A stretch of 64,000 nucleotides of DNA from a candidate division FCPU426 bacterium. GTDB taxonomy: Bacteria; Oederibacteriota; Muellerivitia; Muellerivitales; Muellerivitaceae. The position numbers and the translations under genes are program-made. Where the stretch lies: assembly GCA_963719085.1 (NCBI GenBank), contig CAVRAL010000004.1:354196-418195 (forward strand). Direction: 5' to 3'. Positions 5,878 to 56,863 of this stretch are shown here, in pieces (the stretch's first letter is position 1; the number at the start of each line of letters is the position of its first letter). The notes below the pieces were generated by a model, which had not been told where the DNA came from, searched no databases, and worked only from the letters and a program-made list of their open reading frames with translations.

Positions 5878-5892
5878 GATTTTCCTTTGAGT

Positions 5893-7254
5893 TCAGCGCT
5901 GGGGCGTGGGCGCCAGAATGGCGGAAACCCGCCGCAGTAAAATAAACCCCACCACCCGCATCACCAAGATGAGCCCGATCAAAGCCGTGGGCGACACATG
6001 GCCGTAGATAAAAGAGGAAAAAGATCCGGCCACGAGAACGCCAATATAAACAAAGGCCGTGGAGGCGGCCACGACTTTCGCCCTTTCCTTCTCATCGATG
6101 ATGCTCATCCAAACCGCGGTGCTGACCGAGGCGTAAAGCGACCCGCCCACCGCGCCCAGGCTGGCGGACAAGAGGCAGCCGATCAAAAGTCCGCTGGAAC
6201 CGGGCGTGATCCAAAGCAAAAGCGCCATCGCGCCCACGCCAAAAAGCTGGTCGAAACCAAGGATTTTCACGATCTGTCTTTCCGACAAATTCGGCATGAG
6301 GAAAAAAAGCATGAAGAAAGCCACATAGGCCGAACCTTGGGTCAGGATGGAGAGGTAGGAATCCCGAAGCCCCAGGTACCGCGCGTAATAAAGCGAGGCG
6401 TAAATGGCCCAGGTGGCGATGAACCATTCATCGATCAAACGCGAGGATAGGAAAAGAATCCAGCCGGGCTTTTTCAGGTATTTGCGTAAAGTGAGGACAT
6501 ACTGGCCTAAACCTTCCTTTAAAATCCGCGCCCAGGACCCCGGGGGCTTCTCATAAATTTCCGATTGGGGTAAAAGCCGCCAGCGCAGCGCGATGCCGAC
6601 CGTCACCGAGCCGAAGAAAAACCAATACATCCCATGGCAAGCCGGGCCCAAGCCCATTTTTTCCACCCAAAGCCCGCCCAACAATGGGAAAAAAAACAGG
6701 AACGGCGCCAAGTTGACCAGTTGCAACACCGTATAGACATATCCGCGTTTTTTAGCCGAAAGGTCCTCGGCCAAAAGGCATTGGTAAGGAGGCAGGGATA
6801 GGGCATTGGTGGCGATAAAAAAGATCGCGGCGATGCACCACCATTTGTTGTGGGCCAGGGCCAGACACAACGTGTACCCGCACCAGGTAAAGATGTCAAA
6901 AGTGATGAGGGCCCGCTTGCGGCCCCAAACATCCGAAAAGTAGCCGCCCAGAAAAAAACCCACCAGCCCCACGGCCTTCATCAAAAATTGGTAAAGACCC
7001 ACCTCGGTCTCGGACAATCCCAATTGCACCATATAAAGACTCAGGTAAGGAGCGACCATGCAAAGGCTGATGGTCCAAAGCACGCCGGCGTAAATGGTGA
7101 CGGATTGCCGGCGGGGCATGCTTAAAAACATACGGCGGGTTTTTAAACCATGCCGCCCGATCAAAAACATCGGCTTATCCAAAAGAGCCGCGTTCCATTC
7201 CCCGCCGATGGAACGGGCCAGGGAGCGCAAGGCGGAAAAAAGAGTCAGGATCAC
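5893..7254 (-). CDS. MFS transporter
   Basis: 453 aa, 12 predicted TM segments, GRKRAL-type loop motif (DVWGRKRALIT) between TM2 and TM3. Confidence 0.75.
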   Translation of the reverse strand: MILTLFSALRSLARSIGGEWNAALLDKPMFLIGRHGLKTRRMFLSMPRRQSVTIYAGVLWTISLCMVAPYLSLYMVQLGLSETEVGLYQFLMKAVGLVGFFLGGYFSDVWGRKRALITFDIFTWCGYTLCLALAHNKWWCIAAIFFIATNALSLPPYQCLLAEDLSAKKRGYVYTVLQLVNLAPFLFFFPLLGGLWVEKMGLGPACHGMYWFFFGSVTVGIALRWRLLPQSEIYEKPPGSWARILKEGLGQYVLTLRKYLKKPGWILFLSSRLIDEWFIATWAIYASLYYARYLGLRDSYLSILTQGSAYVAFFMLFFLMPNLSERQIVKILGFDQLFGVGAMALLLWITPGSSGLLIGCLLSASLGAVGGSLYASVSTAVWMSIIDEKERAKVVAASTAFVYIGVLVAGSFSSFIYGHVSPTALIGLILVMRVVGFILLRRVSAILAPTPQR

Positions 7255-7384: not shown

Positions 7385-8536
7385 CTAAACAGCCTGAAAC
7401 TTCCTTCGAATCCACCGGTTGGCGGGCGTTTCAAAGAAATGAAAAGACAGGGCCGCCACCGCCGTTGAGACCGCCGCGAAAATCGGGAACGAAAAATAAA
7501 TGTTCCCGCCCATCAACCGGGGCGACAGAAAATAAAGGACGGTCGTATGAAAAAGATAATTGCCATAGCTGTACTTGCCGGGAAGCGAGAAAATCCAAAA
7601 AAATTTCGACTCCAACCACGGGAGATTCAAGCCCCCCAAGAGGGCCAGGGCCAGCGCGGCGGCGGCCGACCAGGGGGCGTAAAAAGAATCAAAAAGTTCC
7701 GCGCTGGAAGTCGTCCAAAAAACCACCGCGAACCCGGCGAAGCCGATCAAGGCCAATCCCAAGGACCAACTGGGCCTAGTGCGTAAACCCGGCCCCCAGT
7801 TTTTTTGTAAAAAGTAAAGGCCGATGCCCAGCCCGATTTGATCGAAATAACCAAAAGATCCCCACTTCCAATCGAAACCATTATCCAAGGGCTGTTGAAA
7901 CACGAACCAACGCCAGCCGAATCCCAGGGCCAACAACGCCCCCAAAAAGAAACCCAGGTTCCGCGGCCGCTTTAGGAAATTTAAAATCAGGGGATAAAAA
8001 AGATAAAACTGCTCCTCCACCGCGAGCGACCAAAGCACGCCCCAATGGAGGCTGATGTCTCCCCACCGGTTCAAACTCCAGTAAGCCCGGGCCCAATTGA
8101 AAGCGAAAAATAAAAGCGGCAGCCAAAAAGTAAGGTCGCCGGGGTGCTTCGGCAGGTGAAAACAACAGGCGAAAAGCAGGGACGATTTTTTTAAAAAGAT
8201 CCAAAAGCAAAGCCCGATCAGGATATCCAAAACCAACAACGGGACAATGCGCCCGACCCGGTGGGCGTAAAACCGGCCCCAACCCGCTTTAAAAGCGCCC
8301 CCGGGCGCTTGGTCTAAGATACGGGTGATCAGAAATCCCGAGATCATAAAAAAGACCGAGACCCCGTAAGCCCCGTTCCGTTGCAAATGGTCCCAAATCT
8401 CCGGCAAGTCTTTTTGGGGGTCCAAAAGCCAGGGCGTGGAATGAAGCGCCAGCACCGGCAGAATCGCCAAGGTTCGCGCCAGGTCGATCACTTGAATATT
8501 ATGAGCCGGTGTTTTAACCAGGGGGCGGGGGAGCAT
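7385..8536 (-). CDS. acyltransferase family 3 (OafA-like) integral membrane protein
   Basis: 383 aa. N-terminal LDILRTLAILPVLALHS...GVSVFFMISGFLIT matches the acyltransferase-3 signature. Confidence 0.75.
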   Translation of the reverse strand: MLPRPLVKTPAHNIQVIDLARTLAILPVLALHSTPWLLDPQKDLPEIWDHLQRNGAYGVSVFFMISGFLITRILDQAPGGAFKAGWGRFYAHRVGRIVPLLVLDILIGLCFWIFLKKSSLLFACCFHLPKHPGDLTFWLPLLFFAFNWARAYWSLNRWGDISLHWGVLWSLAVEEQFYLFYPLILNFLKRPRNLGFFLGALLALGFGWRWFVFQQPLDNGFDWKWGSFGYFDQIGLGIGLYFLQKNWGPGLRTRPSWSLGLALIGFAGFAVVFWTTSSAELFDSFYAPWSAAAALALALLGGLNLPWLESKFFWIFSLPGKYSYGNYLFHTTVLYFLSPRLMGGNIYFSFPIFAAVSTAVAALSFHFFETPANRWIRRKFQAV

Positions 8537-20827: not shown

Positions 20828-23800
20828 TCAGTTTACGGCTAAATCCTTAAGCAGTTTTTGGACGGACGCCAGGCGGCCTTCGGGGCCCTCCTCGCCTTTG
20901 GAAACCCGGAAAGAAATGGAGCGCGCGTCGTTGGGCGAAAACCGGATCCGGGTGGGCGGCCATTGTTTCATCCATTTCTCAATCCGTGAAACGGCCGGCG
21001 CTAAATCCGGATGCCATTGAAGAAACACCCAGCCCCCTTGGGCTTCCAACCGCTGAATCCCCAACGCCTTCACTTCGGGCCGCAGGGCGGCGATGCGCAT
21101 CAAGGTTTTCGCTTCCTCGGGCGGTTCGCCGAAGCGGTCTTTTAATTCATTCGTGATTTCACGCAGTCCCGCCTCATCCTGGGTTTCCACCAGCCTTCGG
21201 TAAAACTCGATCTTCACCGCTTCCTCAGGGATGTAGTCCTTCGGCAGGTAGGCGCTTAGGCCCAGGGAAAGCACCGGCGTGAAATCCAGCGGTGTTTCCT
21301 CACCCTTCATCTGGGCCAGTTCCTGGGACAACATGCGGCTGTAAAGATCAAACCCGATCGAGTCCAAGGTCCCATGCTGCTGGGTACCTAAAACATTTCC
21401 CGCCCCGCGGATTTCCATATCCTTCATGGCGATGTGCATGCCGGACCCCAACGACGAGAATTCTTGGAGCACTTCCAAGCGTTTTTGCGCCAACTCACGC
21501 AGGGTCAAGTGCCGGGGATAGAAAAAGTAAGCGTAGGCTTGGCGGTTCATGCGGCCCACCCGGCCCTTGAGCTGGTGCAGTTGGGACAGGCCGAAAAGAT
21601 CGGTACGCTCCACGATCAGCGTGTTCACATTGGGCATGTCCAGCCCCGACTCGATGATCGAGGTACAGACCAGCACATGATATTCCTTGTCCACAAAATC
21701 CATCATGATCGATTCCAGCTCGTGCTCGGAAAGCTGTCCATGGGCCACGGCCAGCTTGGCCTCGGGCACCAGCTTATGCAGCTGGTCGGCGATGCGTTCG
21801 ATGTCGCGCACGTGGTTGTGGACGTAAAAGACCTGGCCTTCCCGGTTCATTTCCCGCCGGATCGCCTCCGCTACCAGCTTGTCATCCATGGGCCCGACCT
21901 GGGTGGAAACCGACAGGCGGTTTTGCGGCGGCGTGTCGATGATGGAAATTTCCCGGATGCCCGACAGCGACATATGAAGCGTTCGGGGGATCGGGGTGGC
22001 CGTCAGCGTGAGCACGTCGACATCCGTCTTGAGCGACTTGAGCTTTTCTTTTTGCGACACGCCGAAACGGTGCTCCTCGTCGATGATCAAAAGCCCCAGC
22101 CGGGCGAACTTAATGTCTTTGCCTAAAAGCCGGTGGGTTCCAATGACGATGTCCGCCCGGCCTTCCCGGACGTCCTCCATGGTTTTTTTAACCTCGGAGG
22201 CGCTTCGAAAGCGCGACAGCATTTGAATATTGATGGGATACTCGGCCATGCGTTCTTTAAACGTGTTGAAATGCTGCTGGGCCAAAATGGTGGTGGGCAC
22301 CAAAACCGCGACTTGTTTTTTGTCCTGCACCGCCTTGAAGGCCGCCCGCATGGCCACTTCGGTTTTTCCGTAACCCACGTCCCCGCAAACCAACCGGTCC
22401 ATGGGCCGGTCGCTTTCCATGTCTTTTTTCACGTCCTTGACCGCGTGGTACTGCCCGGGGGTCAGCTCATAGAGGAAGGCGTCCTCAAACTCGTTTTGCC
22501 AGGGCGTATCCGGCGGCAGGGGTTTCTTTTTGATCATCTGCCGGGTGGAATAAAGCGCCATCAGTTCCCGCGCGATGGCCTCGATCTCGCGGCGCACCTT
22601 GGCCTTGGTCCGGCCCCATTGCTCATTGCCGAGCTTGGAAAGGACCGGCGACCCTTCGGCGCCGATATAGCGCTGAACCAGGGCGATCTGGTCCGTGGGC
22701 AGGTAAATCTTCTCGGAATCGGCGAATTCCAGCTGGATGTATTCCCGGGTCACCCCGTCAATCGTCAAGGGCGTCAAGCCCCGGTAAAGGCAGATGCCGC
22801 AATCCACGTGGACGGCCCAATCCCCCAGGGCCAATTCGGAAAGCGACGACAAGGGTTTTCCGCCCGCGATCGCCCTTTGGCGCCGGTGGCGGCCGCCCCG
22901 GTAACGCCGGAACAAATCGTGGTCAGGAATCACCACGCGTTTGATCTCATCCAGAATGAAGCTTTGCTCGATCTCGCCCAAGAGCATGGAGATCTGCGCG
23001 TTGCCCTTCGGGCTCAATTCGGCTTCTTGCAAGAGCTCGGTCAATCTTCCCTGCTCGCCTTTGTTGTGGCACCACAGCGTAACGTGAACGCCCTCCGCCA
23101 GCCATTTTTTGAGGTCGGCGGTGAAGGTGGCGAACTTGCCGTAATAAGGCGGCAGGCTTCTCCCCGGCACCCGGACTAAATTTTTAGGCGTTTCACCGAA
23201 TAAAAGCTGGTCCAACTGGCCTAGGGCCGCCGCGCGGCCCGAGGCCAACACTTTCTTCCAGTTTTTCAAATCCCCGAACATCTCTTCCACCGGATAAAGG
23301 TCCGACCCTTCTTCCTCGGCTTGGCGGGCGCAAGCGTCGAGCAGGCCTTGAAGTTCCTCAGCCTTGCGCTCGATCGCGACGGGTTCCACCAAAATCAAGC
23401 GGCAATCCTCGGGAAGATAATCAAAAAGGCTCGCCCGCTCGTCGAAGGCGCCCAAGGCGTGCCAGGGCCAGCTGGGAAAGCGTCCGGTTTGAGCGAAAAG
23501 ATCCAGCGCGGTTTGGGCCCAACGGGATTCTTCCCGCGCTTTTTCTTTGAGCGCCCTTTCCAGTTTTTTGCGGACCACGGGTTCCAGCACCAATTCATGC
23601 GCCGGAAAAACCCAGACGTCATTCAGCTCGCCGCTGGAGCGCTGGCTTAAAAGGTTCAGCGGCCGCACCGAGGTGATCGTGTCGCCGAAAAGTTCCAGCC
23701 GCACCGGGCCCGAGGGCGATCCCGGCGAGGCCAAATCCAAAATCCCGCCCCGCATGGCGAATTGTCCCGAGGAAACCACCTGGCTCACGGCCTCATAGCC

Positions 23801-24316
23801 GAGGGCGACAAGTTTTTCCTTGAAGTCCGGCGGAATGTCGCCGTCTTTTTTCAAGATGATGATTTTGTCCATCCACTGCTCGGGCGGGAGCGTGTTTTGC
23901 AGCGCGCCCAAAAGCGGGGCGATGACGATTCCCGGCGAGTTTTGCTGGAGTTGATAAAAAGCTTTTTGACGCTCGCCGATCAGCTCCGCGTCCGGCTCCT
24001 CCACGTCCCGGGGCAACACTTCCCAGGCCGGGCACAAGGCGAGTGAAACGCCGGGCATCCAACTGGCCAGATCGTCCCGAAGGATGTCCGCCTCTTCCCG
24101 GGTAGCGGTTAAAAGCACCCAGGGCTTTTTTTCCGAAAGTTTTTCATAGGCCCAAGCCAGAAAAAAGGATTTCGCCGATCCCGGCAGCCCCTGTAAAAGG
24201 GTCAGCGGTTTTCCTTTTTTCAACGCGTCCAGCGCCGGCTGAGCGTCCAGCCAGTCGAGTTTTTCAAAGGCAAGCGTTCCCGGCATAGAAAGCCGGGCCG
24301 CGGATTCAGAAACCAT
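20828..24316 (-). CDS. mfd: transcription-repair coupling factor
   Basis: 1162 aa. UvrB-homology N-terminal region, RNAP-interacting domain, DEAH-box (LLIIDEEHRFG) superfamily-2 translocase, TRCF C-terminal domain. Confidence 0.95.
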   Translation of the reverse strand: MVSESAARLSMPGTLAFEKLDWLDAQPALDALKKGKPLTLLQGLPGSAKSFFLAWAYEKLSEKKPWVLLTATREEADILRDDLASWMPGVSLALCPAWEVLPRDVEEPDAELIGERQKAFYQLQQNSPGIVIAPLLGALQNTLPPEQWMDKIIILKKDGDIPPDFKEKLVALGYEAVSQVVSSGQFAMRGGILDLASPGSPSGPVRLELFGDTITSVRPLNLLSQRSSGELNDVWVFPAHELVLEPVVRKKLERALKEKAREESRWAQTALDLFAQTGRFPSWPWHALGAFDERASLFDYLPEDCRLILVEPVAIERKAEELQGLLDACARQAEEEGSDLYPVEEMFGDLKNWKKVLASGRAAALGQLDQLLFGETPKNLVRVPGRSLPPYYGKFATFTADLKKWLAEGVHVTLWCHNKGEQGRLTELLQEAELSPKGNAQISMLLGEIEQSFILDEIKRVVIPDHDLFRRYRGGRHRRQRAIAGGKPLSSLSELALGDWAVHVDCGICLYRGLTPLTIDGVTREYIQLEFADSEKIYLPTDQIALVQRYIGAEGSPVLSKLGNEQWGRTKAKVRREIEAIARELMALYSTRQMIKKKPLPPDTPWQNEFEDAFLYELTPGQYHAVKDVKKDMESDRPMDRLVCGDVGYGKTEVAMRAAFKAVQDKKQVAVLVPTTILAQQHFNTFKERMAEYPINIQMLSRFRSASEVKKTMEDVREGRADIVIGTHRLLGKDIKFARLGLLIIDEEHRFGVSQKEKLKSLKTDVDVLTLTATPIPRTLHMSLSGIREISIIDTPPQNRLSVSTQVGPMDDKLVAEAIRREMNREGQVFYVHNHVRDIERIADQLHKLVPEAKLAVAHGQLSEHELESIMMDFVDKEYHVLVCTSIIESGLDMPNVNTLIVERTDLFGLSQLHQLKGRVGRMNRQAYAYFFYPRHLTLRELAQKRLEVLQEFSSLGSGMHIAMKDMEIRGAGNVLGTQQHGTLDSIGFDLYSRMLSQELAQMKGEETPLDFTPVLSLGLSAYLPKDYIPEEAVKIEFYRRLVETQDEAGLREITNELKDRFGEPPEEAKTLMRIAALRPEVKALGIQRLEAQGGWVFLQWHPDLAPAVSRIEKWMKQWPPTRIRFSPNDARSISFRVSKGEEGPEGRLASVQKLLKDLAVN

Positions 24317-37433: not shown

Positions 37434-38789
37434 ATGAGTTTTTCCGAACAAGACGTCTTGAACGCCCTAAAAGCGGTGAAAGACCCCGATCTGCACCAGG
37501 ACATCGTGTCCCTGGGCTTCATCAAAAACATGGTCCTCGACGGGGGCCGGGTGGACTTTGAGATCGAAATGACCACCCCCGCCTGCCCGGTGAAGGACTC
37601 CTTCCAAGCCCAAGCCGTGGCGGAAGTGAAAAAAATAGTGGGCGTGTCGCAGGTGAACGTCAAGATGACCTCCAATGTCAAACAAGCGCCCACCGGCATC
37701 AAAAACGTCAACATGCCCTCGGTCAAAAACATCATCGCAGTGGCTTCGGGTAAAGGCGGCGTTGGGAAAAGCACCTTGGCCGCCAACCTGTCGCTGGCCC
37801 TGGCCAAATCCGGGGCCAAGGTGGGACTGATGGACGCCGATGTGTACGGCCCCTCGATTCCCCGCATGCTCGGCGTCATCAACCGCCAGCCGGACCAGGA
37901 TCCGGTCTCGAAAAAAATGATTCCTTTTGAGAAACACGGCATCAAATTCATGTCCATCGGAATGCTTCAAGAAAGCGACACGGCGCTCATTTGGCGCGGC
38001 CCCATGGCCAGCAAAATGGTCCAACAATTTTTAGGCGGCGTGGAATGGGGCGAGCTGGATTATCTTTTAATCGACCTGCCCCCGGGCACGGGCGACATTC
38101 AATTAACCCTCACCCAGTCGGTCCCTTTGGCGGGCGCGGTCATCGTGACGACGCCCCAGGACGTGGCCCGCACGATCACGCAAAAAGGGCTTCGTATGTT
38201 TCAAACGGTTCACGTGCCCATCATCGGTATCGTGGAAAATATGAGCGGTTTCGTATGCGGCCATTGCGGCGAAGTGACTTATATTTTTAAACAAGGCGGC
38301 GGCAAAAAGATGGCGGAAGAATTGATGGTGCCGTTCCTGGGCGAGGTGCCCTTGGAACCCGTGATCGCCGAGGACGGCGACGCCGGCGTGCCTTCGGTGG
38401 CGGCCCATCCGGAAGCTTTGTCCGGCAAGGCTTACGACAAGATCGCCATGCAAATGGCGGCCCAACTTTCCATCATCAACAACGCCACCACCAACGTCAC
38501 CAGCCGGCCGCAGACCGTGGACACCCAAGATCCCCAAGTCACCGTCATCACCTGGGACAACGGCAAGGTCGCGCGTTATCCCAACCGGTATTTACGAAGC
38601 CAGTGCCCCTGCGCCCAATGCGTGAACGAGCTCACCGGGGAACGGATGATCACGCTGGATTCGGTGGACCCCGCCGTCCGGCTGGTGGGCGTGGACCCCG
38701 TGGGGCGCTATGCCCTTCATTTTCAGTGGTCCGACGGCCACGGCACCGGCCTTTATTCCTTTAATACCCTTTTAAAACTCGGCGAATAA
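37434..38789 (+). CDS. apbC: Fe-S cluster carrier ATPase ApbC/Mrp with N-terminal DUF59 (MIP18-like) and C-terminal DUF971 domains
   Basis: 451 aa. DUF59 N-term, deviant Walker A (ASGKGGVGKST), CxxC Fe-S motif (GHCGE...), C-terminal DUF971-type Cys cluster (QCPCAQC). Confidence 0.85.
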   Translation: MSFSEQDVLNALKAVKDPDLHQDIVSLGFIKNMVLDGGRVDFEIEMTTPACPVKDSFQAQAVAEVKKIVGVSQVNVKMTSNVKQAPTGIKNVNMPSVKNIIAVASGKGGVGKSTLAANLSLALAKSGAKVGLMDADVYGPSIPRMLGVINRQPDQDPVSKKMIPFEKHGIKFMSIGMLQESDTALIWRGPMASKMVQQFLGGVEWGELDYLLIDLPPGTGDIQLTLTQSVPLAGAVIVTTPQDVARTITQKGLRMFQTVHVPIIGIVENMSGFVCGHCGEVTYIFKQGGGKKMAEELMVPFLGEVPLEPVIAEDGDAGVPSVAAHPEALSGKAYDKIAMQMAAQLSIINNATTNVTSRPQTVDTQDPQVTVITWDNGKVARYPNRYLRSQCPCAQCVNELTGERMITLDSVDPAVRLVGVDPVGRYALHFQWSDGHGTGLYSFNTLLKLGE

Positions 38790-39013
38790 AACCCTCCAGC
38801 CATGACCCTTCGCATTTTCAAGTAGAAGTTGATAATGGTTTTCAATATCATATGTTTCCCCTGGCTTGGCGATGGGACGTTAAAAACAAAATGATCCACG
38901 TCATACAGGCTTTTTAAAAACGGCTTTAAGTTAAACGGCTGGCCCTCTCGGACAACGAAGAAAAGGCGGCGCGAATTTAGGGATTTACCGAATCCTCGAC
39001 GGAAAGGTTTTCC

Positions 39014-40819
39014 ATGCATTTCCCCATGCTTTTAGTTTTTGGATTTATCGCCGGCGGCACCATTTTGATCGGATTGCCCATCGGACGCTTTAAAGGCTTT
39101 AACCCCACCCTGCGGGCCTCCCTGAGCATGTTCGCGGCGGGCATCCTGGTTTTTTTATTGGTGGAAATCATGGGAGGCGCCTGCGGCCAAACCGCTTCCG
39201 CGCTTCGGGACTTCACCGCCAACCCGGTCTCCGCGCTTTTATTGGTTCTGCTCCTCGTCATCGGTTTTTTCTTGGGCTTCGTGGGGCTGGTGAGCGTCGA
39301 GCAAAAACTAATCCGTTCCGCCGATCCCCTGAACCCCCAAAACCTGTCCCTGATGATCGCCATCGGCATTGGCCTTCATAACTTAAGCGAAGGGCTCGCC
39401 ATCGGCCAAGCCTTTGCCCAAGGCATGAACGGCCTGACGGTAAGCCTCATCCTGGGTTTCGCCTTGCACAACGCCACCGAAGGCTTCGGCATCATGGGCC
39501 CCGTGGTTCGGGCCGGACAAACGGTTTCTTGGGGCCGTATTCTGCTTTTGGCCGCCATTGGCGGCGGCCCGACCTTTGTGGGAACCCTCTTGGGCAGCCT
39601 TTGGACTTCGCCGTTCCTTTCCGTGCTGGTTTTGGCCATGGCCGGCGGCGCCTTGCTCTATGTATTGAAGGAACTATTGAACGGAGCCCGCCGGGAAACG
39701 GCCCAGGTGCTGGTCATGACCACCTTGGTTTTTGGTTTCACCATCGGCTGGGGCACCGAAGTCGTGGCGGACATTTCCCAAAGCTCACAAACCGCCGTGG
39801 AAGCCGACGGGGATAAAATAGCCTCTTCCGCCTCGGTTTCTGGGCCCGCCCTCAGCGCCGCCGAAGCCGCCGCCCAAGACCAAACCTCCAACGCCATGCT
39901 CCACGAGCAAGCCATGGCGCCTCAAACGCTTTCCGATGGAACTAAGGAATACGATTTGACCGCCTCGGCTTTTCCCTGGGAAGTTTATCCGGGCGTGAGG
40001 GTCATGGCTTGGGGATACAACGGCGAAGTCCCGGGCCCCTTGCTTCGGTGGAAAGTCGGCGACAAGGTTAAGATTGTGGTGAAGAATAATCTTCCCCAAG
40101 CCACCACGGTTCATTGGCACGGCCTGGCGGTTCCCAACGCCCAAGACGGCGTGCCCGGCATTACCCAAAAGGCTATCCCGCCTGGCGGCCAATATGTCTA
40201 TTCCTTTAAAGTCACGCCCCAAATGGTCGGCACCCATCTTTATCACACCCACGTCAACGACGATTTCCAGATGGATAAAGGACTGCATGGAGTCCTCCTC
40301 GTGGACCCGGCCGCGGGTGCCAAGCCCGCCGTTGACGCTTTATACGAGATCGCCTCTTTCAAAATCGGCGGTTCGGACAATGAAAATGTCTTTACCTTGG
40401 ACGGCAAGGCTTGCCCCGAAGCCCCGGCCCTGCGGGTTTCCAAAGGCTCCCTCGTTCACTTGCGATTGGTGAACGCCAGCGCCGAAGAATCGCACGTCAT
40501 GCACCTGCATGGCTACAGCTTTCAAATCGTGGCCTTGGACGGAAACCCCTTGGCCCGTCCCATCGTGGCCAACACGGTTCACTTGGCGCCGTCCCAAACC
40601 GCCGATGTGGAATTCATCGCCAACAATCCCGGCATCTGGATGTTCCATTGCCACATCCTAGATCACTTAATCAATCCCGGCCCCGCCGGAGACGGGTCCG
40701 AGACTGAAATCGCCGATATGGGGGGGCTGATGACCTTCGTGGAAGTGGTTGATTGGAAAAATCCGAAGTCAGATTATTTGGCCGCCGGCGCCGTCACAAG
40801 CGAAAGCATCTGCCGCTAG
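39014..40819 (+). CDS. ZIP-family metal permease fused to a two-domain multicopper oxidase
   Basis: 601 aa. Residues 1-~260: 8 TM helices with the two ZIP signature helices GLHNLSEGLAIG and ALHNATEGFGI. Residues ~300-601: cupredoxin domains with Cu ligands HWHG, HTH, HLHG, HCHILDH. Confidence 0.75.
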   Translation: MHFPMLLVFGFIAGGTILIGLPIGRFKGFNPTLRASLSMFAAGILVFLLVEIMGGACGQTASALRDFTANPVSALLLVLLLVIGFFLGFVGLVSVEQKLIRSADPLNPQNLSLMIAIGIGLHNLSEGLAIGQAFAQGMNGLTVSLILGFALHNATEGFGIMGPVVRAGQTVSWGRILLLAAIGGGPTFVGTLLGSLWTSPFLSVLVLAMAGGALLYVLKELLNGARRETAQVLVMTTLVFGFTIGWGTEVVADISQSSQTAVEADGDKIASSASVSGPALSAAEAAAQDQTSNAMLHEQAMAPQTLSDGTKEYDLTASAFPWEVYPGVRVMAWGYNGEVPGPLLRWKVGDKVKIVVKNNLPQATTVHWHGLAVPNAQDGVPGITQKAIPPGGQYVYSFKVTPQMVGTHLYHTHVNDDFQMDKGLHGVLLVDPAAGAKPAVDALYEIASFKIGGSDNENVFTLDGKACPEAPALRVSKGSLVHLRLVNASAEESHVMHLHGYSFQIVALDGNPLARPIVANTVHLAPSQTADVEFIANNPGIWMFHCHILDHLINPGPAGDGSETEIADMGGLMTFVEVVDWKNPKSDYLAAGAVTSESICR

Positions 40820-41099
40820 GACTAACGCCGCTAGCGGGCCGCCAGAACATTAAATAGCGTCAATGCGGCCCGCTACCCCTAAAATTCGGCAAGCATTTGG
40901 GGATTACCTTGAATTTTTTTGCCCAATAATTTAGCCCCCCTTTAAATTTGTGTCGAAACCAGGGCACTAAAAACCCCGCAATCCGCCGGGTTACTCTTTT
41001 ACCCTGATTTAACAATTCCCACCGCTTCAAGCGTCCCGCCACGGCGTATAGTTTTTATATCAATTCAAGTTCAGCGCAAGAGGCCGAAAGAGGTGCGAG

Positions 41100-41303
41100 A
41101 TGTCCACCACTTTGAAAGCTTCACTCATCCGGAAAGCCATCCGGGACTACAACTACAAATATGACGCCGTTTCGGGTTTAAAAGAACTGATGTGGCGATG
41201 CTCCAAATGCGGTGAGTTGGTGCATCGAAAGGATGGGTTGCCGGAAAAATGCCCCTCCTGCGGGGCTTCCCGGCTTGAGTTTTCGCTGGTCGAAGAAGAC
41301 TAG
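41100..41303 (+). CDS. small zinc-ribbon (rubredoxin-like) protein
   Basis: 67 aa. Two CxxC pairs (CSKCGE ... CPSCGA). Confidence 0.5.
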   Translation: MSTTLKASLIRKAIRDYNYKYDAVSGLKELMWRCSKCGELVHRKDGLPEKCPSCGASRLEFSLVEED

Positions 41304-41403: not shown

Positions 41404-43302
41404 CTAGTTGGCTAAGGCTTTTTTGAGAAAGTCCTCGGCGGATAAAAATCCCACCGTGCGTAGGTCCTTGTGTTCCTGCCCATCCGCTCCCACGAAAATC
41501 AGCGTGGGAACGCCCATGATGCCGTAGCTTTTTTTCAGCGTTTCCACCGGCCCTGAGCTGTACTGGGTCAAATCCGCCTTCAATAAAATCCATTGCTTCA
41601 AGGCCTCATGCACCCGGGGATCCGAAAAGGTTTTAATCTCCAGTTCTTTGCAAGGCAGGCACCAGGCCGCGGAAAAGTCGATCAAGACGGGCTTGCCTTG
41701 TTTTTGAGCCTGGGCTAATAGGTCGGCGCTGTAAGGGACGAAGGGCAATTCGACCGGCTTGGGCCAGATCAAAAAAACGACCAGGCCTAAAACCGCGACC
41801 AAGGTTCCAAAAACCCGCTGGAAGGCTTTAAATCCGGTCCCCACGCCTTTTCCGGAAAAAAACCAGCCCAGCAATAAACCCGCCGCGATGAGGTAGGCCG
41901 GCACCAGTCCCCGGCTCCAGGCTGGGGGTAAAAGCGGGTTGAGAAAATAAAGCGGCATCCCCAAAAGCACCATCCCAAAAATCTTTTTCACCCAGACCAT
42001 CCACATCCCGGATCTGGGCAGTCTTTGAATTTCGTTTGAGAAAAAACCCAGCCAAAGATAAGGGAAACCCAGCCCCAGCGACAAGGTGAAGAACAAAATG
42101 AATCCCAAAAAGGGATCGGCCTTGGCGGCCACGAAGGTTAAAAGCCCGATGGAAAAAGGATCCACGCAAGGCGCGGCCACGATTCCAAAGACCAAACCCA
42201 TTCCCAAAGCGCCCACCCAGCCTTGGGCCTTGCCGCCGGCCACCTTATTTAAAAGCCAGCCCGGCGCTTGGATTTCATAAAGGCCGAACATGGAAAAGGA
42301 CAAGGTCACCAGAAGAATCGAAATGCCCGCCAAAATCAGGGGCGATTGAAGGGTCGACCCTAAGATGCGCCCGGTCAAGGCCGCCGTCACGCCCAGCCCC
42401 GAATAGGTCACGGAGATTCCCACCACATAGGCCAAGGCTTTGGCGAAAACCGCTCCCGGCTTCTCCGCTTTTTGGCTTCCAAAATAAGAAACGGTTAAAG
42501 GGATCATGGGATAAACGCAAGGCGTCAGGTTTAACGCCAGACCGCCCAAAAAGATCAGCGCGAAGGTAATCAGAATCCCCTTCTCCCTGAAAAATTTGGC
42601 GATGATATTTTCGGATCCGGCCGCGCCGGTTTGGGCGGCCAAGGCGCTTTTAAAAACATCCTCGTGAAGTGGAGCGACCGGCGCGCTAAGCCCCGCGGCT
42701 TGGAGCGGGATGCCGCCCGAGACAACGGCGGGCGCCAAACAAACTTGGTTATTACAGGCCTGGATTCTTAATTGAAAAGGCAGCCTAAGGGCGCCAATGG
42801 ATAAATTATCTTTTAACTTAACATCGGCGAAAAGCGTGACGCTTTGCTCATAAACCGAGAAGGCTTCCGTCAAACCACCTAAAGCCTTTTTTTCGCCCTC
42901 GGGAAACCGGACCGCCACCAGACTGGCAGGAGCGCCAGCACTGAGCGAAAAGGTCATAGGAATAAAACCATCGGGCAAACCGGACGCGGCGTTGACATGC
43001 CAACCGGATTGAATTTTAACCACCACCGCTATCGTTAAAAGGGTTCCCGAATGCACGGGGGCAAGTGAGGCGTAGCCCATGGCTTTCACCACGGAAGCGC
43101 TGTTCATCATGGGTTTGGCGTTTACGGGACCCGCCGAGAGCAGGCTGAGGGCCAGAAGAAGACACGAAACGGTTTGAACGATTTTGTTTTTCATATGCTG
43201 AGAATACCCGATTTCAGGCCTTGAGGTTACCCAGGCGCTGAAAAATCCTGAACTTCCAGGGAATACACTTAGGGATTTTAAAGATTCCGAAATCGCGGAC
43301 AA
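41404..43302 (-). CDS. dsbD: thiol:disulfide interchange protein DsbD
   Basis: 632 aa. Signal peptide, N-terminal Ig-like alpha domain, central 8-TM domain, C-terminal thioredoxin domain with WCLPCK. Confidence 0.85.
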   Translation of the reverse strand: MSAISESLKSLSVFPGSSGFFSAWVTSRPEIGYSQHMKNKIVQTVSCLLLALSLLSAGPVNAKPMMNSASVVKAMGYASLAPVHSGTLLTIAVVVKIQSGWHVNAASGLPDGFIPMTFSLSAGAPASLVAVRFPEGEKKALGGLTEAFSVYEQSVTLFADVKLKDNLSIGALRLPFQLRIQACNNQVCLAPAVVSGGIPLQAAGLSAPVAPLHEDVFKSALAAQTGAAGSENIIAKFFREKGILITFALIFLGGLALNLTPCVYPMIPLTVSYFGSQKAEKPGAVFAKALAYVVGISVTYSGLGVTAALTGRILGSTLQSPLILAGISILLVTLSFSMFGLYEIQAPGWLLNKVAGGKAQGWVGALGMGLVFGIVAAPCVDPFSIGLLTFVAAKADPFLGFILFFTLSLGLGFPYLWLGFFSNEIQRLPRSGMWMVWVKKIFGMVLLGMPLYFLNPLLPPAWSRGLVPAYLIAAGLLLGWFFSGKGVGTGFKAFQRVFGTLVAVLGLVVFLIWPKPVELPFVPYSADLLAQAQKQGKPVLIDFSAAWCLPCKELEIKTFSDPRVHEALKQWILLKADLTQYSSGPVETLKKSYGIMGVPTLIFVGADGQEHKDLRTVGFLSAEDFLKKALAN

Positions 43303-55528: not shown

Positions 55529-56863
55529 TTGATAAAGTCTTTAAAAATAGAAAACTTTAAAAGTTTCGAAATATACACGATTCATTTTGATCGTTTGAAT
55601 TTATTAGTCGGCGGCAACAACTGCGGGAAAACAACTATTTTCCATGCTTTACAATTTGTTTTTTGGTGCGTGGAACAAACAGCAAATATCGATGATGACA
55701 GTGTTACTTTTTTAAAAGCACAAGTAAGTGAAATACCAGTTATTCCATACTTTAATCAACGCGACATCTTCCACAAACAAAAAGTTCGCAAAGGAAATGC
55801 GCCTGCTCGAATTCGGCTGACAGTTGAAACAGACGTAGCTCCTCCATTGACCTTTGTTATTTATCCTGCTTTTAGTAGGAACTTACTTGTTAGCGGCGAA
55901 AGTAAAACAATAACTCGCAAACAATATGATGATTTAATAAAAGTCAAACCAACATATATTCCAGGAACTATAGGTATAACCGTTAAAGAAGATTTATACC
56001 GGGTTGTAGCGCAGGAACGAATGATTGCCGACGGAAGACAAAATCAAGTTATCCGTAATCTTGTGTTTCGTTTAAAAAACAACGATAAAGGCGGGGACGA
56101 ATGGCATGATTATGTCGACGTAATGAAATCACTATTTTTGCTTAGCGGAATTGAAATTCCTTTCAACGAAAATAGGGACGAATGGCTCACTGCAATTTAC
56201 AGCGAGGGCGATTGTAAATTCGATTTTGTTTCTGCGGGTTCCGGATTTTTGCAAGCGGTTAATCTTTTAACATTCTTATTTTTGCACGAAACAAAAGTGG
56301 CCTTAATAGACGAACCAGACTCACATATGCACGAAGATTTACAAAAGTTAACTCTCGATAAATTAGACCAGTTATCCAAGAAAAAAAACATACAACTTGT
56401 AATCGCTACACACAGTCCTACATTCATTGATGCTGCTGGCCTTCAAAATGTGATCGTAATTGACAACAAACTGCCGCTACCTTTAAAAGCTCAAAATGCT
56501 GAGGATCTATTTCCGATGCTAGGCGATAGAGGTCTAGCCATGCCACCAATGAAAGTAATGGACACTTTAAAATCCAGAAAAGTTTTGTTTGTTGAAGATT
56601 ACGAATCAGATTTTCAAGATTTTTTGAACGAATTGGGCGAGGTTTATAAACCCGGTTTCAAAGCAAGAGTTAAAGATTTGACGGTTATTAGCACAAAAGG
56701 AATTACTAGTAGTTGGCCGTTCGAAGCCATTGCTTGCTTTGAAAAACTGCTTGGAACGAAAATTGATTATGTTTACGTTTCGGATAGAGATTTTCATACA
56801 GACGAAAACGTACTCGAAAGAGAAGCGCGGGCTCGCAAGGAGAAAAAAACATTTTCCATTTAA
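55529..56863 (+). CDS. OLD-family-like ABC ATPase with C-terminal TOPRIM-like motifs (probably the N-terminal ~440 codons of a longer gene; see next feature)
   Basis: TTG start with GGGAG RBS. Walker A LLVGGNNCGKTTIFHAL, Walker B/D-loop ALIDEPDSHMHEDL, H-loop LVIATHSPTF. Then VLFVEDYESD (TOPRIM Glu) and YVYVSDRDFH (DxD). ~35% GC versus ~59% background. Confidence 0.7.
   Translation: MIKSLKIENFKSFEIYTIHFDRLNLLVGGNNCGKTTIFHALQFVFWCVEQTANIDDDSVTFLKAQVSEIPVIPYFNQRDIFHKQKVRKGNAPARIRLTVETDVAPPLTFVIYPAFSRNLLVSGESKTITRKQYDDLIKVKPTYIPGTIGITVKEDLYRVVAQERMIADGRQNQVIRNLVFRLKNNDKGGDEWHDYVDVMKSLFLLSGIEIPFNENRDEWLTAIYSEGDCKFDFVSAGSGFLQAVNLLTFLFLHETKVALIDEPDSHMHEDLQKLTLDKLDQLSKKKNIQLVIATHSPTFIDAAGLQNVIVIDNKLPLPLKAQNAEDLFPMLGDRGLAMPPMKVMDTLKSRKVLFVEDYESDFQDFLNELGEVYKPGFKARVKDLTVISTKGITSSWPFEAIACFEKLLGTKIDYVYVSDRDFHTDENVLEREARARKEKKTFSI

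What the first reader, a model, noticed from the sequence alone, without database searches (positions are those of the whole stretch)
39014..40819. Single polypeptide fusing a ZIP-family metal permease to a periplasmic two-domain multicopper oxidase
The N-terminal 8-TM module has the two ZIP signature helices (HNLSEG / HNATEG). ZIP topology places the C-terminus outside the cytoplasm, which is where a Cu-oxidase domain must fold. The C-terminal ~300 aa contain the four MCO His-rich copper-ligand motifs HWHG, HTH, HLHG, HCHILDH. Coupling an MCO (ferroxidase/cuprous-oxidase chemistry) covalently to a divalent-metal permease is reminiscent of the eukaryotic Fet3-Ftr1 oxidase-permease pair. It is not a standard bacterial architecture as far as I know. 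It could channel an oxidised or reduced metal (Fe, Cu, Mn) directly into or away from the transporter.
Basis: partly seen in the sequence, partly recalled or inferred. Interest (0 to 1): 0.65.

Follow-up and report, generated by a model that had tools for sequence, protein, structure and literature searches.

The report
Iron-regulated ZIP permease fused to copper oxidase
One gene really does encode a ZIP-type metal permease joined to an outward-facing two-domain copper oxidase; it sits behind a conserved iron-repressor (Fur) site, so it is most likely an oxidase-coupled iron-uptake device built on a different permease from the yeast Fet3-Ftr1 system.

Summary
ORF 39014-40819 (+) encodes 601 aa: an 8-helix ZIP permease (aa 1-254), a low-confidence tether (aa 255-280) and a two-domain multicopper oxidase (aa ~305-580). 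All six ZIP metal-site residues and all copper ligands are intact.

It is not an assembly artefact. At least 80 protein clusters share the ZIP-MCO order and 10 have the reverse MCO-ZIP order. They come from seven or more phyla and include finished genomes.

Hydropathy and the positive-inside rule place the oxidase outside the cytoplasm.

New evidence:
- A Fur box (16/19, the only such site in 64 kb) overlaps the promoter-like hexamers. It is the one conserved block in the intergenic region of orthologues.
- In another relative an 18/19 box heads a hemP-exbBD-tonB-receptor-ZIP-MCO gene string.
- Reverse-order fusions follow a DtxR/IdeR-type repressor gene.
- The same ZIP clade is also fused to cupredoxin, cytochrome c and cupredoxin+DyP peroxidase. 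This is the partner set of Ftr1/EfeU iron permeases.

Best reading: an iron-starvation-induced, oxidase-coupled ZIP uptake system. The metal and the direction of coupling are inferred, not shown. The closest published case is the adjacent MCO1 and ZIP genes of ammonia-oxidising archaea. I rate it a new variant of a known kind, interest about 0.6.

The parts
38831..38849 (.). Fur-box-like operator GATAATGGTTTTCAATATC, inside the conserved 23-nt footprint TGATAATGGTTTTCAATATCAT
   Evidence: 16/19 (minus strand) and 15/19 (plus strand) to GATAATGATAATCATTATC. It is the only site with 3 or fewer mismatches in 64 kb, and 0 of 100 shuffles give any. It is the only conserved block in the intergenic alignment with L001 and L008.
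38809..38856 (+). Two overlapping sigma-70-like promoter candidates (TTCGCA-16-GATAAT and TTGATA-16-TATGTT) that overlap the Fur box
   Evidence: Consensus scan, 9/12 matches each. These are pattern matches only, not shown to be functional.
39001..39007 (+). Ribosome-binding site GGAAAGG, 6 nt before the ATG
   Evidence: Read directly from the sequence.
39014..40819 (+). ZIP-MCO fusion gene, 601 aa plus stop codon
39014..39775 (+). ZIP permease domain, aa 1-254. Eight TM helices at about aa 5-23, 35-53, 75-93, 113-131, 139-160, 174-194, 200-218 and 230-250, topology N-out/C-out
   Evidence: Hydropathy and K/R distribution, Pfam Zip, BbZIP profile and fold matches.
39377..39394 (+). TM4 metal-site motif HNLSEG (H122, N123, E126)
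   Evidence: Invariant H, N, E and G in 58 of 58 ZIP-MCO sequences. Aligns to HNLPEG of BbZIP.
39467..39484 (+). TM5 metal-site motif HNATEG (H152, N153, E156)
   Evidence: Invariant in A3. Aligns to QDVPEG of BbZIP. HNxTEG is the signature of this ZIP clade.
39776..39925 (+). Extracytoplasmic tether and N-terminal helix of the oxidase module, aa 255-304. It includes the near-invariant A-D-G-D motif (aa 264-267, nt 39803-39814) and the helix aa 282-296
   Evidence: pLDDT is below 50 for aa 257-274 and above 90 from about aa 281. ADGD is conserved in 53-57 of 58 sequences. Its role is unexplained.
39926..40318 (+). MCO cupredoxin domain 1, aa ~305-435, with HWHG (aa 367-370, nt 40112-40123) and HTH (aa 411-413, nt 40244-40252). 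These four His serve the trinuclear centre. There is no Cys, so no type-1 site in this domain
   Evidence: Pfam Cu-oxidase_3 at 132 bits. Compare YHTH here with YHCH in 2zwn and 3g5w.
40319..40753 (+). MCO cupredoxin domain 2, aa ~436-580, with H494-x-x-H497-x-H499 (nt 40493-40513), H545-C546-H547-x3-H551 (nt 40646-40666), a conserved 17-residue loop INPGPxG(D/E)GS, and the probable axial M569 (nt 40718-40720)
   Evidence: Pfam Cu-oxidase_2 at 93.8 bits. Conservation counts.
40832..40875 (+). 11-bp GC-rich inverted repeat 13 nt after the stop codon, a possible transcript end with no U tract
   Evidence: RNA fold gives -26.7 kcal/mol but a z-score of only -1.36. This is weak evidence.

Best explanation
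The gene encodes an inner-membrane ZIP-family divalent-metal permease. Its C-terminus emerges on the outer face of the membrane and continues, through a flexible tether, into a complete two-domain multicopper oxidase.

Shown:
- the architecture
- the intact ZIP binuclear metal site
- the full set of copper ligands
- the outside location by topology rules
- the recurrence of the fusion in both domain orders
- a conserved Fur-type operator over the promoter-like hexamers

Inferred:
1. Fur represses the gene when iron is sufficient, and it is expressed under iron starvation.
2. Three chains associate through their oxidase domains, because the trinuclear copper centre of two-domain MCOs forms between subunits.
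3. The oxidase takes electrons from Fe(II) at the type-1 copper near H551 and passes them to O2.
4. This oxidation is coupled to iron entry through the attached ZIP. That would be a ZIP-based analogue of the oxidase-permease systems Fet3-Ftr1 and EfeUOB.

I cannot say whether the ZIP carries the oxidised product, or carries Fe(II) while the oxidase gives selectivity or protection.
For: Architecture and topology.

The fusion is under selection as a transporter:
- 80 ZIP-MCO and 10 MCO-ZIP clusters all keep HN..EG twice.
- H122, N123, E126, H152, N153 and E156 are invariant in 58 sequences.

Iron link:
1. The Fur box at 38831-38849 scores 16/19. It is unique in 64 kb and 0 of 100 shuffles produce one.
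2. It is the only conserved block in the intergenic region across window, L001 (83% id protein) and L008 (71% id protein, FCPU426 MAG).
3. In L004 (73% id) an 18/19 box follows TTGACA and heads the same-strand gene string hemP/YdiE-like, exbB, exbD, tonB, TonB-dependent receptor, ZIP-MCO.
4. In 1.07 Mb of fetched loci, boxes of 15/19 or better occur in only 10 loci. Eight of these lie upstream of these genes: L001-L004, L008, the Nitrospirota ZIP-cytochrome c gene (L089), and two Bacillota lipoprotein homologues of the oxidase (L044, L048; box at -122 in both).
5. Six reverse-order MCO-ZIP loci have a DtxR/IdeR/MntR-family repressor gene directly upstream, with TTAGG-N-CCTAA-type boxes at its promoter.

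Coupling logic: the same ZIP clade (HNxxEG / HNxTEG) is also fused to type-1 cupredoxin, cytochrome c, a thioredoxin-like domain and cupredoxin+DyP peroxidase. Apart from the thioredoxin-like domain, this is the partner repertoire of Ftr1/EfeU permeases.
Against: - No enzymatic or transport data exist.
- ZIPs are known to carry divalent cations. Fe(II) oxidation would remove the usual ZIP substrate, so direct hand-over of Fe(III) would be unprecedented for this fold.
- Fur-family boxes can also serve Mn regulators. The DtxR-family neighbours score slightly better against a Thermus-type MntR model than against DtxR, and both scores are below cut-off.
- No Fur or IdeR site was found upstream of the Kyrpidia, Alicyclobacillus, Deinococcus or actinobacterial genes.
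- Bacillota members carry Met-rich inserts typical of Cu(I) binding.
- The only published expression data for a MCO+ZIP pair show mild induction by copper limitation in an archaeon (PMC7785015).
- Relatives that keep only one TM helix, or have degenerate ZIP motifs (P0074, P0080, P0084), show the oxidase can function without the permease.
- Gene neighbourhoods are otherwise not conserved.
Confidence: 0.5

Rival explanations
1. Copper acquisition. The oxidase converts Cu(I) to Cu(II), the only MCO metal product that is a divalent cation, and the ZIP imports it. This is the mechanism proposed for the adjacent MCO1 and ZIP genes of ammonia-oxidising archaea.
For: The published hypothesis, and mild co-induction of MCO1 and its neighbouring permease under Cu limitation (PMC7785015). 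The MCO1+ZIP pairing is conserved in archaea (PMC5817080). Bacillota ZIP-MCO members carry Met-rich inserts, e.g. MKMNMDGMDMKMG, and most members have His-Met in the loop next to the type-1 His. The chemistry fits a divalent-cation permease.
Against: The window protein has no Met-rich insert and has Glu rather than His-Met in that loop. Its promoter carries a Fur box, not a CueR, CsoR or CopY site. No copper regulator, chaperone or ATPase appears among 150 neighbouring ORFs of 26 fused loci. Homology to the archaeal pair was not tested.
Confidence: 0.17
2. Gatekeeper or ligand-oxidising model. The ZIP imports Fe(II) or Mn(II) as usual. The tethered oxidase does not feed it. Instead it either removes harmful or competing reduced metals (Cu(I), excess Fe(II)) at the mouth of a promiscuous permease, or oxidises phenolic or catecholate chelators to free bound iron.
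For: It is compatible with the Fur and DtxR-family regulation and with ordinary ZIP chemistry. The oxidase is structurally closest to laccase-like two-domain MCOs. Oxidase-only relatives with a single membrane anchor or a lipoprotein anchor exist, and some are also behind Fur boxes. The long, poorly modelled tether argues against rigid channelling.
Against: It does not explain why fusion to a ZIP arose in both orders, nor why the ZIP clade repeatedly acquires redox partners of the Ftr1/EfeU type. Substrate preference is untested.
Confidence: 0.18
3. Manganese system. The ZIP imports Mn(II) under MntR/Fur-family control and the oxidase acts on Mn(II), or on Fe(II) that competes with it.
For: The DtxR-family neighbours score best against a Thermus-type MntR model, 121-137 bits. 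Some databases label homologues 'manganese oxidase'. Fur-like boxes control Mn uptake genes in some bacteria (established knowledge).
Against: The MntR scores are far below the model cut-off of 350. The operators next to those regulators resemble IdeR/DtxR iron boxes. L004 places the gene with hemP, exbBD-tonB and a receptor, a typical iron context. The 'manganese oxidase' labels are automatic.
Confidence: 0.08
4. The ZIP part is only a membrane anchor, or a route for loading copper into the oxidase, for a laccase-type enzyme whose job is unrelated to metal uptake.
For: Close homologues (59-66% id) replace the ZIP by a single helix that resembles ZIP TM8. Three long homologues have lost the ZIP motifs. 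Gram-positive hosts need anchoring for extracytoplasmic enzymes.
Against: The six metal-site residues and many glycine and proline positions of the ZIP are invariant across 58 sequences down to 53% identity. They are also kept in the independent reverse-order fusion. An anchor would not be constrained like this. Oxidase-only relatives still need copper without a ZIP.
Confidence: 0.06
5. Assembly or frameshift artefact joining two adjacent genes.
For: None found. Reads could not be examined.
Against: A continuous ORF with no compositional break. The same colinear fusion occurs in 80 or more clusters, including complete genomes, with conserved motifs (ADGD, LHE) inside the junction region.
Confidence: 0.01

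Closest known systems
Adjacent MCO1 (two-domain multicopper oxidase) and ZIP permease genes of ammonia-oxidising archaea (Kerou et al. 2016 as cited in PMC7785015 and PMC5817080)
   Same: The same two components, a two-domain MCO and a ZIP permease, are genetically linked. The same idea applies: an extracytoplasmic oxidase prepares a metal for a ZIP. The comparison with Fet3-Ftr1 is made explicitly in PMC7785015.
   Different: There they are two separate genes in archaea, and copper is the proposed metal on the basis of a mild response to Cu limitation. Here it is one polypeptide in bacteria, with Fur or DtxR-type (iron/manganese) regulatory signals. Whether the bacterial domains are orthologous to the archaeal pair was not tested. 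Neither system has been characterised biochemically.
Fet3p-Ftr1p (yeast) and the bacterial oxidase-dependent iron transporters EfeUOB and FtrABCD (OFeT family, TC 2.A.108)
   Same: An iron-regulated extracytoplasmic copper or haem oxidase is paired with a membrane permease. The partner repertoire (MCO, cupredoxin, DyP peroxidase, cytochrome c) is mirrored by the fusions found on this ZIP clade.
   Different: The permease is a ZIP (8 TM, H-N-E binuclear site), not an Ftr1/EfeU protein with REXXE motifs. The oxidase has two domains and is presumably trimeric, not the three-domain monomer Fet3p. The components are covalently fused. Transport of Fe(III) by a ZIP is unknown.
ZupT and BbZIP (bacterial ZIP transporters)
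   Same: The 8-TM fold (TM-score 0.64-0.75 to BbZIP) and H-N-x-x-E-G motifs in TM4 and TM5. ZupT is a broad-range Zn/Fe/Co/Mn importer (established knowledge).
   Different: It is not a ZupT orthologue (43.8 bits against a cut-off of 252). It belongs to a distinct clade with HNxTEG in TM5 and carries a 350-aa extracytoplasmic redox enzyme.
Two-domain multicopper oxidases mgLAC (2zwn), Nitrosomonas europaea blue copper oxidase (3g5w) and Arthrobacter MCO (3gdc)
   Same: Best sequence and fold matches (E 1e-38 to 1e-40; TM to target 0.76-0.83). The same domain packing implies a trimer with inter-subunit trinuclear centres.
   Different: Those enzymes have the type-1 Cys in domain 1 (YHCH) and none in domain 2. 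Here it is the reverse: YHTH in domain 1 and HCHILDH in domain 2, as in SLAC-type enzymes (from memory). A conserved 17-residue loop separates the type-1 His from the likely axial Met. Those enzymes are soluble, and this one is tethered to a transporter.
CueO / CopA-PcoA cuprous oxidases
   Same: A periplasmic MCO acting on a metal ion. Some ZIP-MCO relatives have Met-rich segments.
   Different: They are three-domain, Tat-exported, copper-induced and not linked to a permease. The window protein has no Met-rich segment and no copper regulatory context.

Membership tests
ZIP (Zrt/Irt-like protein) transporters, Pfam PF02535 / TC 2.A.5 | Match to the family profile above the curated threshold | tested here: met
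   Pfam Zip 39.7 bits for the whole protein and 42.3 bits for the domain alone, against a cut-off of 35.1. All 16 diverse family members pass.
ZIP (Zrt/Irt-like protein) transporters, Pfam PF02535 / TC 2.A.5 | Eight transmembrane helices with both termini outside the cytoplasm | tested here: met
   Eight hydrophobic segments and eight long helices in the model. K/R residues cluster in alternate loops 1-2, 3-4, 5-6 and 7-8. This is a prediction only, with no experimental topology.
ZIP (Zrt/Irt-like protein) transporters, Pfam PF02535 / TC 2.A.5 | Metal-binding residues of the binuclear centre in TM4 and TM5 | tested here: met
   H122-N123-x-x-E126 and H152-N153-x-x-E156 align to HNLPEG and QDVPEG of BbZIP. 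They are invariant in 58 of 58 sequences.
ZIP (Zrt/Irt-like protein) transporters, Pfam PF02535 / TC 2.A.5 | ZIP fold | tested here: met
   The model has pLDDT 89 and pTM 0.83. The nine best PDB matches are all BbZIP (prob 1.00, TM 0.64-0.75), and the next hit has E above 0.01.
ZIP (Zrt/Irt-like protein) transporters, Pfam PF02535 / TC 2.A.5 | Divalent metal transport | not testable with these tools
   Needs uptake assays.
ZupT orthologues (NCBIfam NF003243) | Score above the equivalog cut-off | tested here: not met
   43.8 bits against a cut-off of 252, although the alignment spans 9-257 of 266 profile positions. It is related to ZupT but is not a ZupT.
Two-domain multicopper oxidases | Two cupredoxin domains of the MCO type | tested here: met
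   Cu-oxidase_3 at 132 bits and Cu-oxidase_2 at 93.8 bits. Fold matches to 2zwn, 3g5w and 3gdc.
Two-domain multicopper oxidases | Eight His ligands of the trinuclear centre plus His-Cys-His of the type-1 site | tested here: met
   H367, H369, H411, H413, H497, H499, H545 and H547 for the trinuclear centre, and H494, C546 and H551 for type 1. All are invariant in A3 except H545, which is Gln in 11 of 58 relatives.
Two-domain multicopper oxidases | Axial ligand four residues after the second type-1 His | tested here: inconclusive
   The usual position (+5) is Gly556. The conserved M569 (57 of 58) lies 18 residues after H551, beyond a conserved loop. Coordinates of the model were not available to measure distances.
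Two-domain multicopper oxidases | Homotrimer with inter-subunit trinuclear centres | not testable with these tools
   Inferred from the same domain packing as the trimeric 2zwn and 3g5w (rmsd 1.7-2.2 Å). No multimer modelling was possible.
Oxidase-dependent iron transporters (Fet3-Ftr1, EfeUOB; TC 2.A.108) | Permease of the Ftr1/EfeU family with REXXE motifs | tested here: not met
   The permease is a ZIP. No Ftr1/EfeU family hit was found. It is therefore not a member, only a functional analogue.
Oxidase-dependent iron transporters (Fet3-Ftr1, EfeUOB; TC 2.A.108) | Extracytoplasmic oxidase partner (MCO, cupredoxin, DyP) | tested here: met
   An MCO is fused here. Sister fusions carry cupredoxin, cytochrome c and cupredoxin+DyP.
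Oxidase-dependent iron transporters (Fet3-Ftr1, EfeUOB; TC 2.A.108) | Iron-responsive expression | tested here: inconclusive
   Predicted from a conserved Fur box and from DtxR-family neighbours. There are no expression data.
Oxidase-dependent iron transporters (Fet3-Ftr1, EfeUOB; TC 2.A.108) | Ferroxidase activity coupled to uptake | not testable with these tools
   Needs enzyme and uptake assays.
Fur regulon | Fur-box match at the promoter, conserved in orthologues | tested here: met
   16/19 in the window, overlapping the promoter-like hexamers. 16/19 in L001-L003, 17/19 in L008 and 18/19 at the head of the L004 gene string. It forms a phylogenetic footprint.
Fur regulon | Fur binding and iron-dependent repression | not testable with these tools
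   No fur gene lies in the window. Needs EMSA and expression data.
Archaeal MCO1+ZIP gene pair | Orthology of both components to the archaeal proteins | not tested
   No archaeal sequences were retrieved. The link rests only on shared domain types.
CueO/CopA-type cuprous oxidases | Three-domain MCO with a Met-rich Cu(I) site, Tat export and copper-responsive control | tested here: not met
   Two domains, no Met-rich insert in this protein, no signal peptide (N-terminal ZIP), and no copper regulator nearby.

The most novel reading that the evidence does not exclude
A whole clade of ZIP transporters (signature HNxxEG in TM4 and HNxTEG in TM5) works as redox-coupled permeases. An attached or adjacent extracytoplasmic oxidase (two-domain MCO, blue cupredoxin, cytochrome c or DyP peroxidase) oxidises Fe(II) at the membrane surface, and the ZIP takes up the product or is gated by the reaction. 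That would be an independent reinvention of the Fet3-Ftr1 / EfeUOB principle on a different transporter fold. It would also mean that ZIPs are not restricted to simple divalent-cation uniport.
Probability: 0.25. Interest if true: 0.8.

Novelty: new variant of a known kind. Interest (0 to 1): 0.62.

Why it matters
ZIP transporters are studied from bacteria to humans as plain divalent-metal importers. A conserved, widespread fusion to a copper oxidase suggests some ZIPs are mechanistically coupled to redox chemistry outside the cell. That has so far been described only for Ftr1/EfeU-type iron permeases. Three things support the coupling: the fusion occurs in both orders, it is iron-regulated, and sister fusions carry cupredoxin, cytochrome c and DyP peroxidase.

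The single-polypeptide form is a convenient experimental handle. One gene gives both partners in fixed stoichiometry. This makes the untested archaeal 'MCO1+ZIP' uptake hypothesis, and the Fe-versus-Cu question, directly testable by heterologous expression.

It also bears on how uncultured soil and peat lineages (FCPU426, Eremiobacterota, Acidobacteria) obtain iron.

Tried and rejected
- A single-sequence search of the ZIP part against PDB found nothing. A family profile was needed.
- Gene-neighbourhood look-ups for six fused relatives showed no conserved partner genes. The window's own synteny (Mrp/ApbC, rubredoxin-like ORF, DsbD) is kept only in close relatives. I therefore did not use it as functional evidence.
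- Contexts of the ZIP-cytochrome c, ZIP-cupredoxin-DyP and stand-alone ZIP genes were likewise uninformative, apart from the Fur box in L089.
- Upstream regions of the proteobacterial genes (L005, L011, L012) share a palindrome (GCGAATG...CATTCGC) that matches the Fur consensus only 11-12/19. Kyrpidia and Alicyclobacillus share TGACT-N5-AGTCA near the RBS. I could not assign either to a regulator.
- The IdeR-box consensus scored only 13-14/19 in the Eremiobacterota loci, although TTAGG...CCTAA repeats are visible.
- The TonB-dependent receptor of L004 could not be typed as siderophore, haem or copper specific.
- The helical C-terminal domain of the large Acidobacteria ZIP-cupredoxin-like family looked EfeO/imelysin-like to the eye. 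It gave no Pfam, NCBIfam or PDB sequence match, so that idea is unproven.
- Four literature searches found no paper on the fusion. The Kerou 2016 paper is not in the library.
- The hairpin after the stop codon is not significantly more stable than shuffles.
- I first counted P0134 and P0155 (593 aa) as ZIP-MCO by length. Motif checks showed they are not.
Full report
**1.

The window contains a continuous ORF at 39014-40819 on the + strand, 601 aa, with an ATG start. A GGAAAGG ribosome-binding site lies six bases upstream. There is no compositional break across it.

- HNLSEG (aa 122-127) and HNATEG (aa 152-157) in the N-terminal half
- HWHG (367-370), HTH (411-413), HVMHLHG (494-500) and HCHILDH (545-551) in the C-terminal half

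Pfam gives Zip at 39.7 bits (cut-off 35.1), Cu-oxidase_3 at 132 bits and Cu-oxidase_2 at 93.8 bits.

**2. The ZIP assignment is secure.**

The single sequence finds no solved structure. A profile of 16 ZIP domains of the family does hit the Bordetella ZIP structures (8j1m, 5tsa and others) at E 4e-9 to 8e-9. In that alignment HNLSEG falls on HNLPEG and HNATEG on QDVPEG, the two halves of the binuclear metal site. All 16 members pass the Pfam threshold.

An AlphaFold model of the domain has pLDDT 89.1 and pTM 0.83. BbZIP entries are its nine best PDB matches (TM 0.64-0.75), followed by a sharp drop.

The protein is not a ZupT orthologue: 43.8 bits against a cut-off of 252.

**3. Topology.**

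Eight hydrophobic segments (aa 5-23, 35-53, 75-93, 113-131, 139-160, 174-194, 200-218, 230-250) coincide with eight long helices in the model. Lys and Arg cluster in loops 1-2, 3-4, 5-6 and 7-8. The stretch after TM8 is acidic.

This gives N-out/C-out, the established ZIP topology, so the oxidase lies outside the cytoplasm. The reverse-order relatives start with a signal peptide and end with the ZIP. That places the oxidase outside as well.

**4. The oxidase.**

The C-terminal ~300 aa are closest to the two-domain MCOs mgLAC (2zwn), the Nitrosomonas europaea blue copper oxidase (3g5w) and 3gdc. Sequence E-values are 1e-31 to 1e-40, TM to target is 0.76-0.83, and rmsd is 1.7-3.4 Å.

All eight His of the trinuclear centre and the type-1 His-Cys-His are present. 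Unlike 2zwn and 3g5w (YHCH in domain 1, no Cys in domain 2), this protein has YHTH in domain 1 and HCH in domain 2. Its blue copper therefore sits in domain 2.

The usual axial position is Gly. A conserved Met569 follows an unusually long, conserved 17-residue loop, INPGPxG(D/E)GS.

The domain packing equals that of trimeric two-domain MCOs, whose trinuclear centres form between subunits. The active unit is therefore presumably a trimer carrying three ZIP domains. This is an inference.

The tether (aa 257-274) is modelled with pLDDT below 50, and the full-length pTM is 0.59. No fixed docking of oxidase on permease can be claimed. The tether nevertheless contains a nearly invariant A-D-G-D motif (aa 264-267), which I cannot explain.

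**5. It is not an artefact, and the fusion is selected.**

Among the 120 best database homologues:
- 80 have the ZIP-MCO order (48-96% identity, full length)
- 10 have the reverse MCO-ZIP order
- 26 are short oxidase-only proteins
- 3 are full-length but with degenerate ZIP motifs

Hosts include candidate division FCPU426 (the closest named relative, 71% identity), Steroidobacteraceae and Alphaproteobacteria. They also include Alicyclobacillus, Kyrpidia, Aneurinibacillus, Deinococcus plasmids, Actinomycetota, a verrucomicrobial methanotroph and many Eremiobacterota. Several are complete genomes.

All 90 fusions with recognisable ZIP motifs keep both HN..EG motifs. In 58 aligned ZIP-MCO proteins, down to 53% identity, the six metal-site residues are invariant.

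Two domain orders, both compatible with an outside oxidase, are classic evidence for functional coupling.

The short oxidase-only relatives keep a single N-terminal helix that resembles ZIP TM8. The oxidase can therefore work without the permease, as a membrane-anchored enzyme.

**6. Regulation points to iron.**

*Fur box in the window and its orthologues.* The 225-bp gap upstream of the gene contains GATAATGGTTTTCAATATC at 38831-38849, which matches the Fur consensus 16/19.
- It is the best match in the whole 64-kb window and the only one with three or fewer mismatches. None of 100 shuffled windows had any.
- It overlaps two promoter-like hexamer pairs.
- In the alignment of this intergenic region with those of an 83%-identical orthologue (L001) and the 71%-identical FCPU426 orthologue (L008), the 23-nt block TGATAATG(G/A)TTTTCAATATCAT is the only conserved stretch.

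*L004.* In a third relative (L004, 73% identity) the gene is the last in a same-strand string: hemP/YdiE-like, exbB, exbD, tonB, TonB-dependent receptor, ZIP-MCO. An 18/19 Fur box sits just downstream of a TTGACA hexamer at the head of this string.

*Survey of all fetched loci.* Across 1.07 Mb, boxes of 15/19 or better occur in only ten loci. Eight of these lie upstream of genes of this kind:
- L001-L004 and L008
- a Nitrospirota ZIP-cytochrome c fusion (16/19 at -37)
- two Bacillota lipoprotein homologues of the oxidase, with a box at -122 in both

*DtxR-family neighbours.* I took a census of 150 neighbouring ORFs from 26 fused loci. The commonest families were the three domains of DtxR/IdeR/MntR-type repressors. 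They occurred in six loci, always directly upstream of a reverse-order MCO-ZIP gene. TTAGG...CCTAA repeats lie at the regulator's promoter.

No copper or zinc regulator, copper chaperone or copper ATPase turned up.

**7. The ZIP clade repeatedly acquires redox partners.**

A profile search of the fused ZIP domain against 1.84 billion representatives found 308 at E of 1e-30 or better. Nearly all share HNxxEG / HNxTEG.

Besides stand-alone ZIPs of 250-300 aa, the close hits include ZIPs with C-terminal extensions:
- a type-1 cupredoxin with His, Cys, His and Met ligands
- a CxxCH cytochrome c
- a CxxC thioredoxin-like domain
- cupredoxin plus DyP peroxidase, in two clusters at 61% identity, so not a one-off

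MCO, cupredoxin, DyP peroxidase and c-type cytochrome are the partners known for Ftr1/EfeU-type iron permeases (Fet3-Ftr1, EfeUOB, FtrABCD; established knowledge).

**8. Most likely mechanism.**

Together these results support an iron-starvation-induced uptake module. In it, an outward-facing copper oxidase is coupled to a ZIP permease. It is a functional analogue of oxidase-permease iron uptake, but not a member of that family, because the permease fold differs.

The steps that are shown and inferred are listed in the best explanation.

The weak point is chemical. ZIPs carry divalent ions, and oxidising Fe(II) removes the normal substrate. There are three ways out:
- the ZIP accepts the nascent Fe(III), which would be unprecedented
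- the oxidase acts as a selectivity or protection device, or destroys chelators, beside an ordinary Fe(II)/Mn(II) importer
- the true substrate is Cu(I), whose oxidation yields a divalent ion

The third is the hypothesis published for the adjacent MCO1 and ZIP genes of ammonia-oxidising archaea (PMC7785015; the pair is tabulated in PMC5817080). Met-rich inserts in the Bacillota members fit copper, but the window protein lacks them and has acidic residues instead.

**9. Novelty.**

Public databases call these proteins only 'multicopper oxidase domain-containing protein', 'zinc transporter ZupT' or 'putative manganese oxidase'. Five full-text searches found no description of the fusion. The library does not cover all journals.

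The nearest published idea is the archaeal two-gene pair, which is untested. I therefore rate it a new variant of a known kind (oxidase-coupled metal uptake), with moderate to high interest. The value lies mainly in the family-wide pattern and in the testability of a single-polypeptide system.

Noticed in passing
Proteins P0288-P0393 (e.g. P0361, P0289, P0155); no window coordinates: A large family, 98 of 113 clusters in one search, mostly Acidobacteria/Pyrinomonadaceae, about 590 aa. It consists of a ZIP, a Cys-less cupredoxin-like domain, and a ~240-aa helical domain with invariant EGH, KHAxHPxHE, EY and ExQD motifs. The helical domain has no Pfam, NCBIfam or PDB sequence match. It may be an unrecognised metal-binding (EfeO-like?) domain.
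   Followed up: partly
P0129, P0168 (L089 6001-7182); P0140, P0158, P0166; P0175; P0177 (L088 5493-7568), P0286: The same ZIP clade is fused at its outside C-terminus to cytochrome c, to a blue cupredoxin, to a TlpA-like thioredoxin domain, and to cupredoxin plus DyP peroxidase. The Nitrospirota ZIP-cytochrome c gene has a 16/19 Fur box at -37.
   Followed up: partly
L044 2700-4430 (Bacillus sp. EB600): An IMEF-cargo plus encapsulin (Linocin_M18) iron-storage pair sits behind a perfect 19/19 Fur box at 2756. It is next to a Fur-box-preceded 455-aa lipoprotein two-domain MCO (5560-6927) that is related to the window's oxidase domain.
   Followed up: partly
L019 2585-7164; L017 421-3310; L007 9821-10855: Oxidase-only relatives with a single TM8-like anchor, and one MCO-ZIP gene, lie directly next to one or two PF04185 phosphoesterase (acid phosphatase / phospholipase C family) genes. 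The association is unexplained.
   Followed up: no
window 39803-39814 (aa 264-267): An A-D-G-D motif is conserved in 53-57 of 58 sequences, inside an otherwise variable, low-confidence tether between ZIP and oxidase. It could be a metal relay or a subunit contact.
   Followed up: no
P0058, P0069, P0071-P0078, P0081, P0039, P0063: Actinobacterial, Deinococcus and some other ZIP-MCO proteins have QCH instead of HCH. They thus lack one of the eight trinuclear-centre His ligands.
   Followed up: no
window 37434-38789 (+), 41100-41303 (+), 41404-43302 (-): The flanking genes are an Mrp/NUBPL-type Fe-S carrier ATPase fused to a DUF971/GBBH-like domain, a 67-aa rubredoxin-like protein (DUF7130 + RUBY_RBDX), and a DsbD-type thiol:disulfide transporter. 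This synteny is kept only in close relatives (L001-L003, partly L008).
   Followed up: partly
L006 ~7960-7990; L022 ~5960-5990; L013 ~5940-5970: Kyrpidia and Alicyclobacillus ZIP-MCO genes share a palindrome TGACT-N5-AGTCA immediately before the ribosome-binding site. L005, L011 and L012 share GCGAATG...CATTCGC. Both are unassigned operator candidates.
   Followed up: no
window 21743-21818 (+): ARAGORN calls a 'tRNA-His' with the non-standard anticodon ATG. It lies inside, and antisense to, the 1162-aa ORF 20828-24316 (-), so it is probably a false positive.
   Followed up: no
window 55529-56863 (+): A 444-aa AAA_15/AAA_21 (OLD/AbiEii-like) ATPase, possibly part of a defence system.
   Followed up: no
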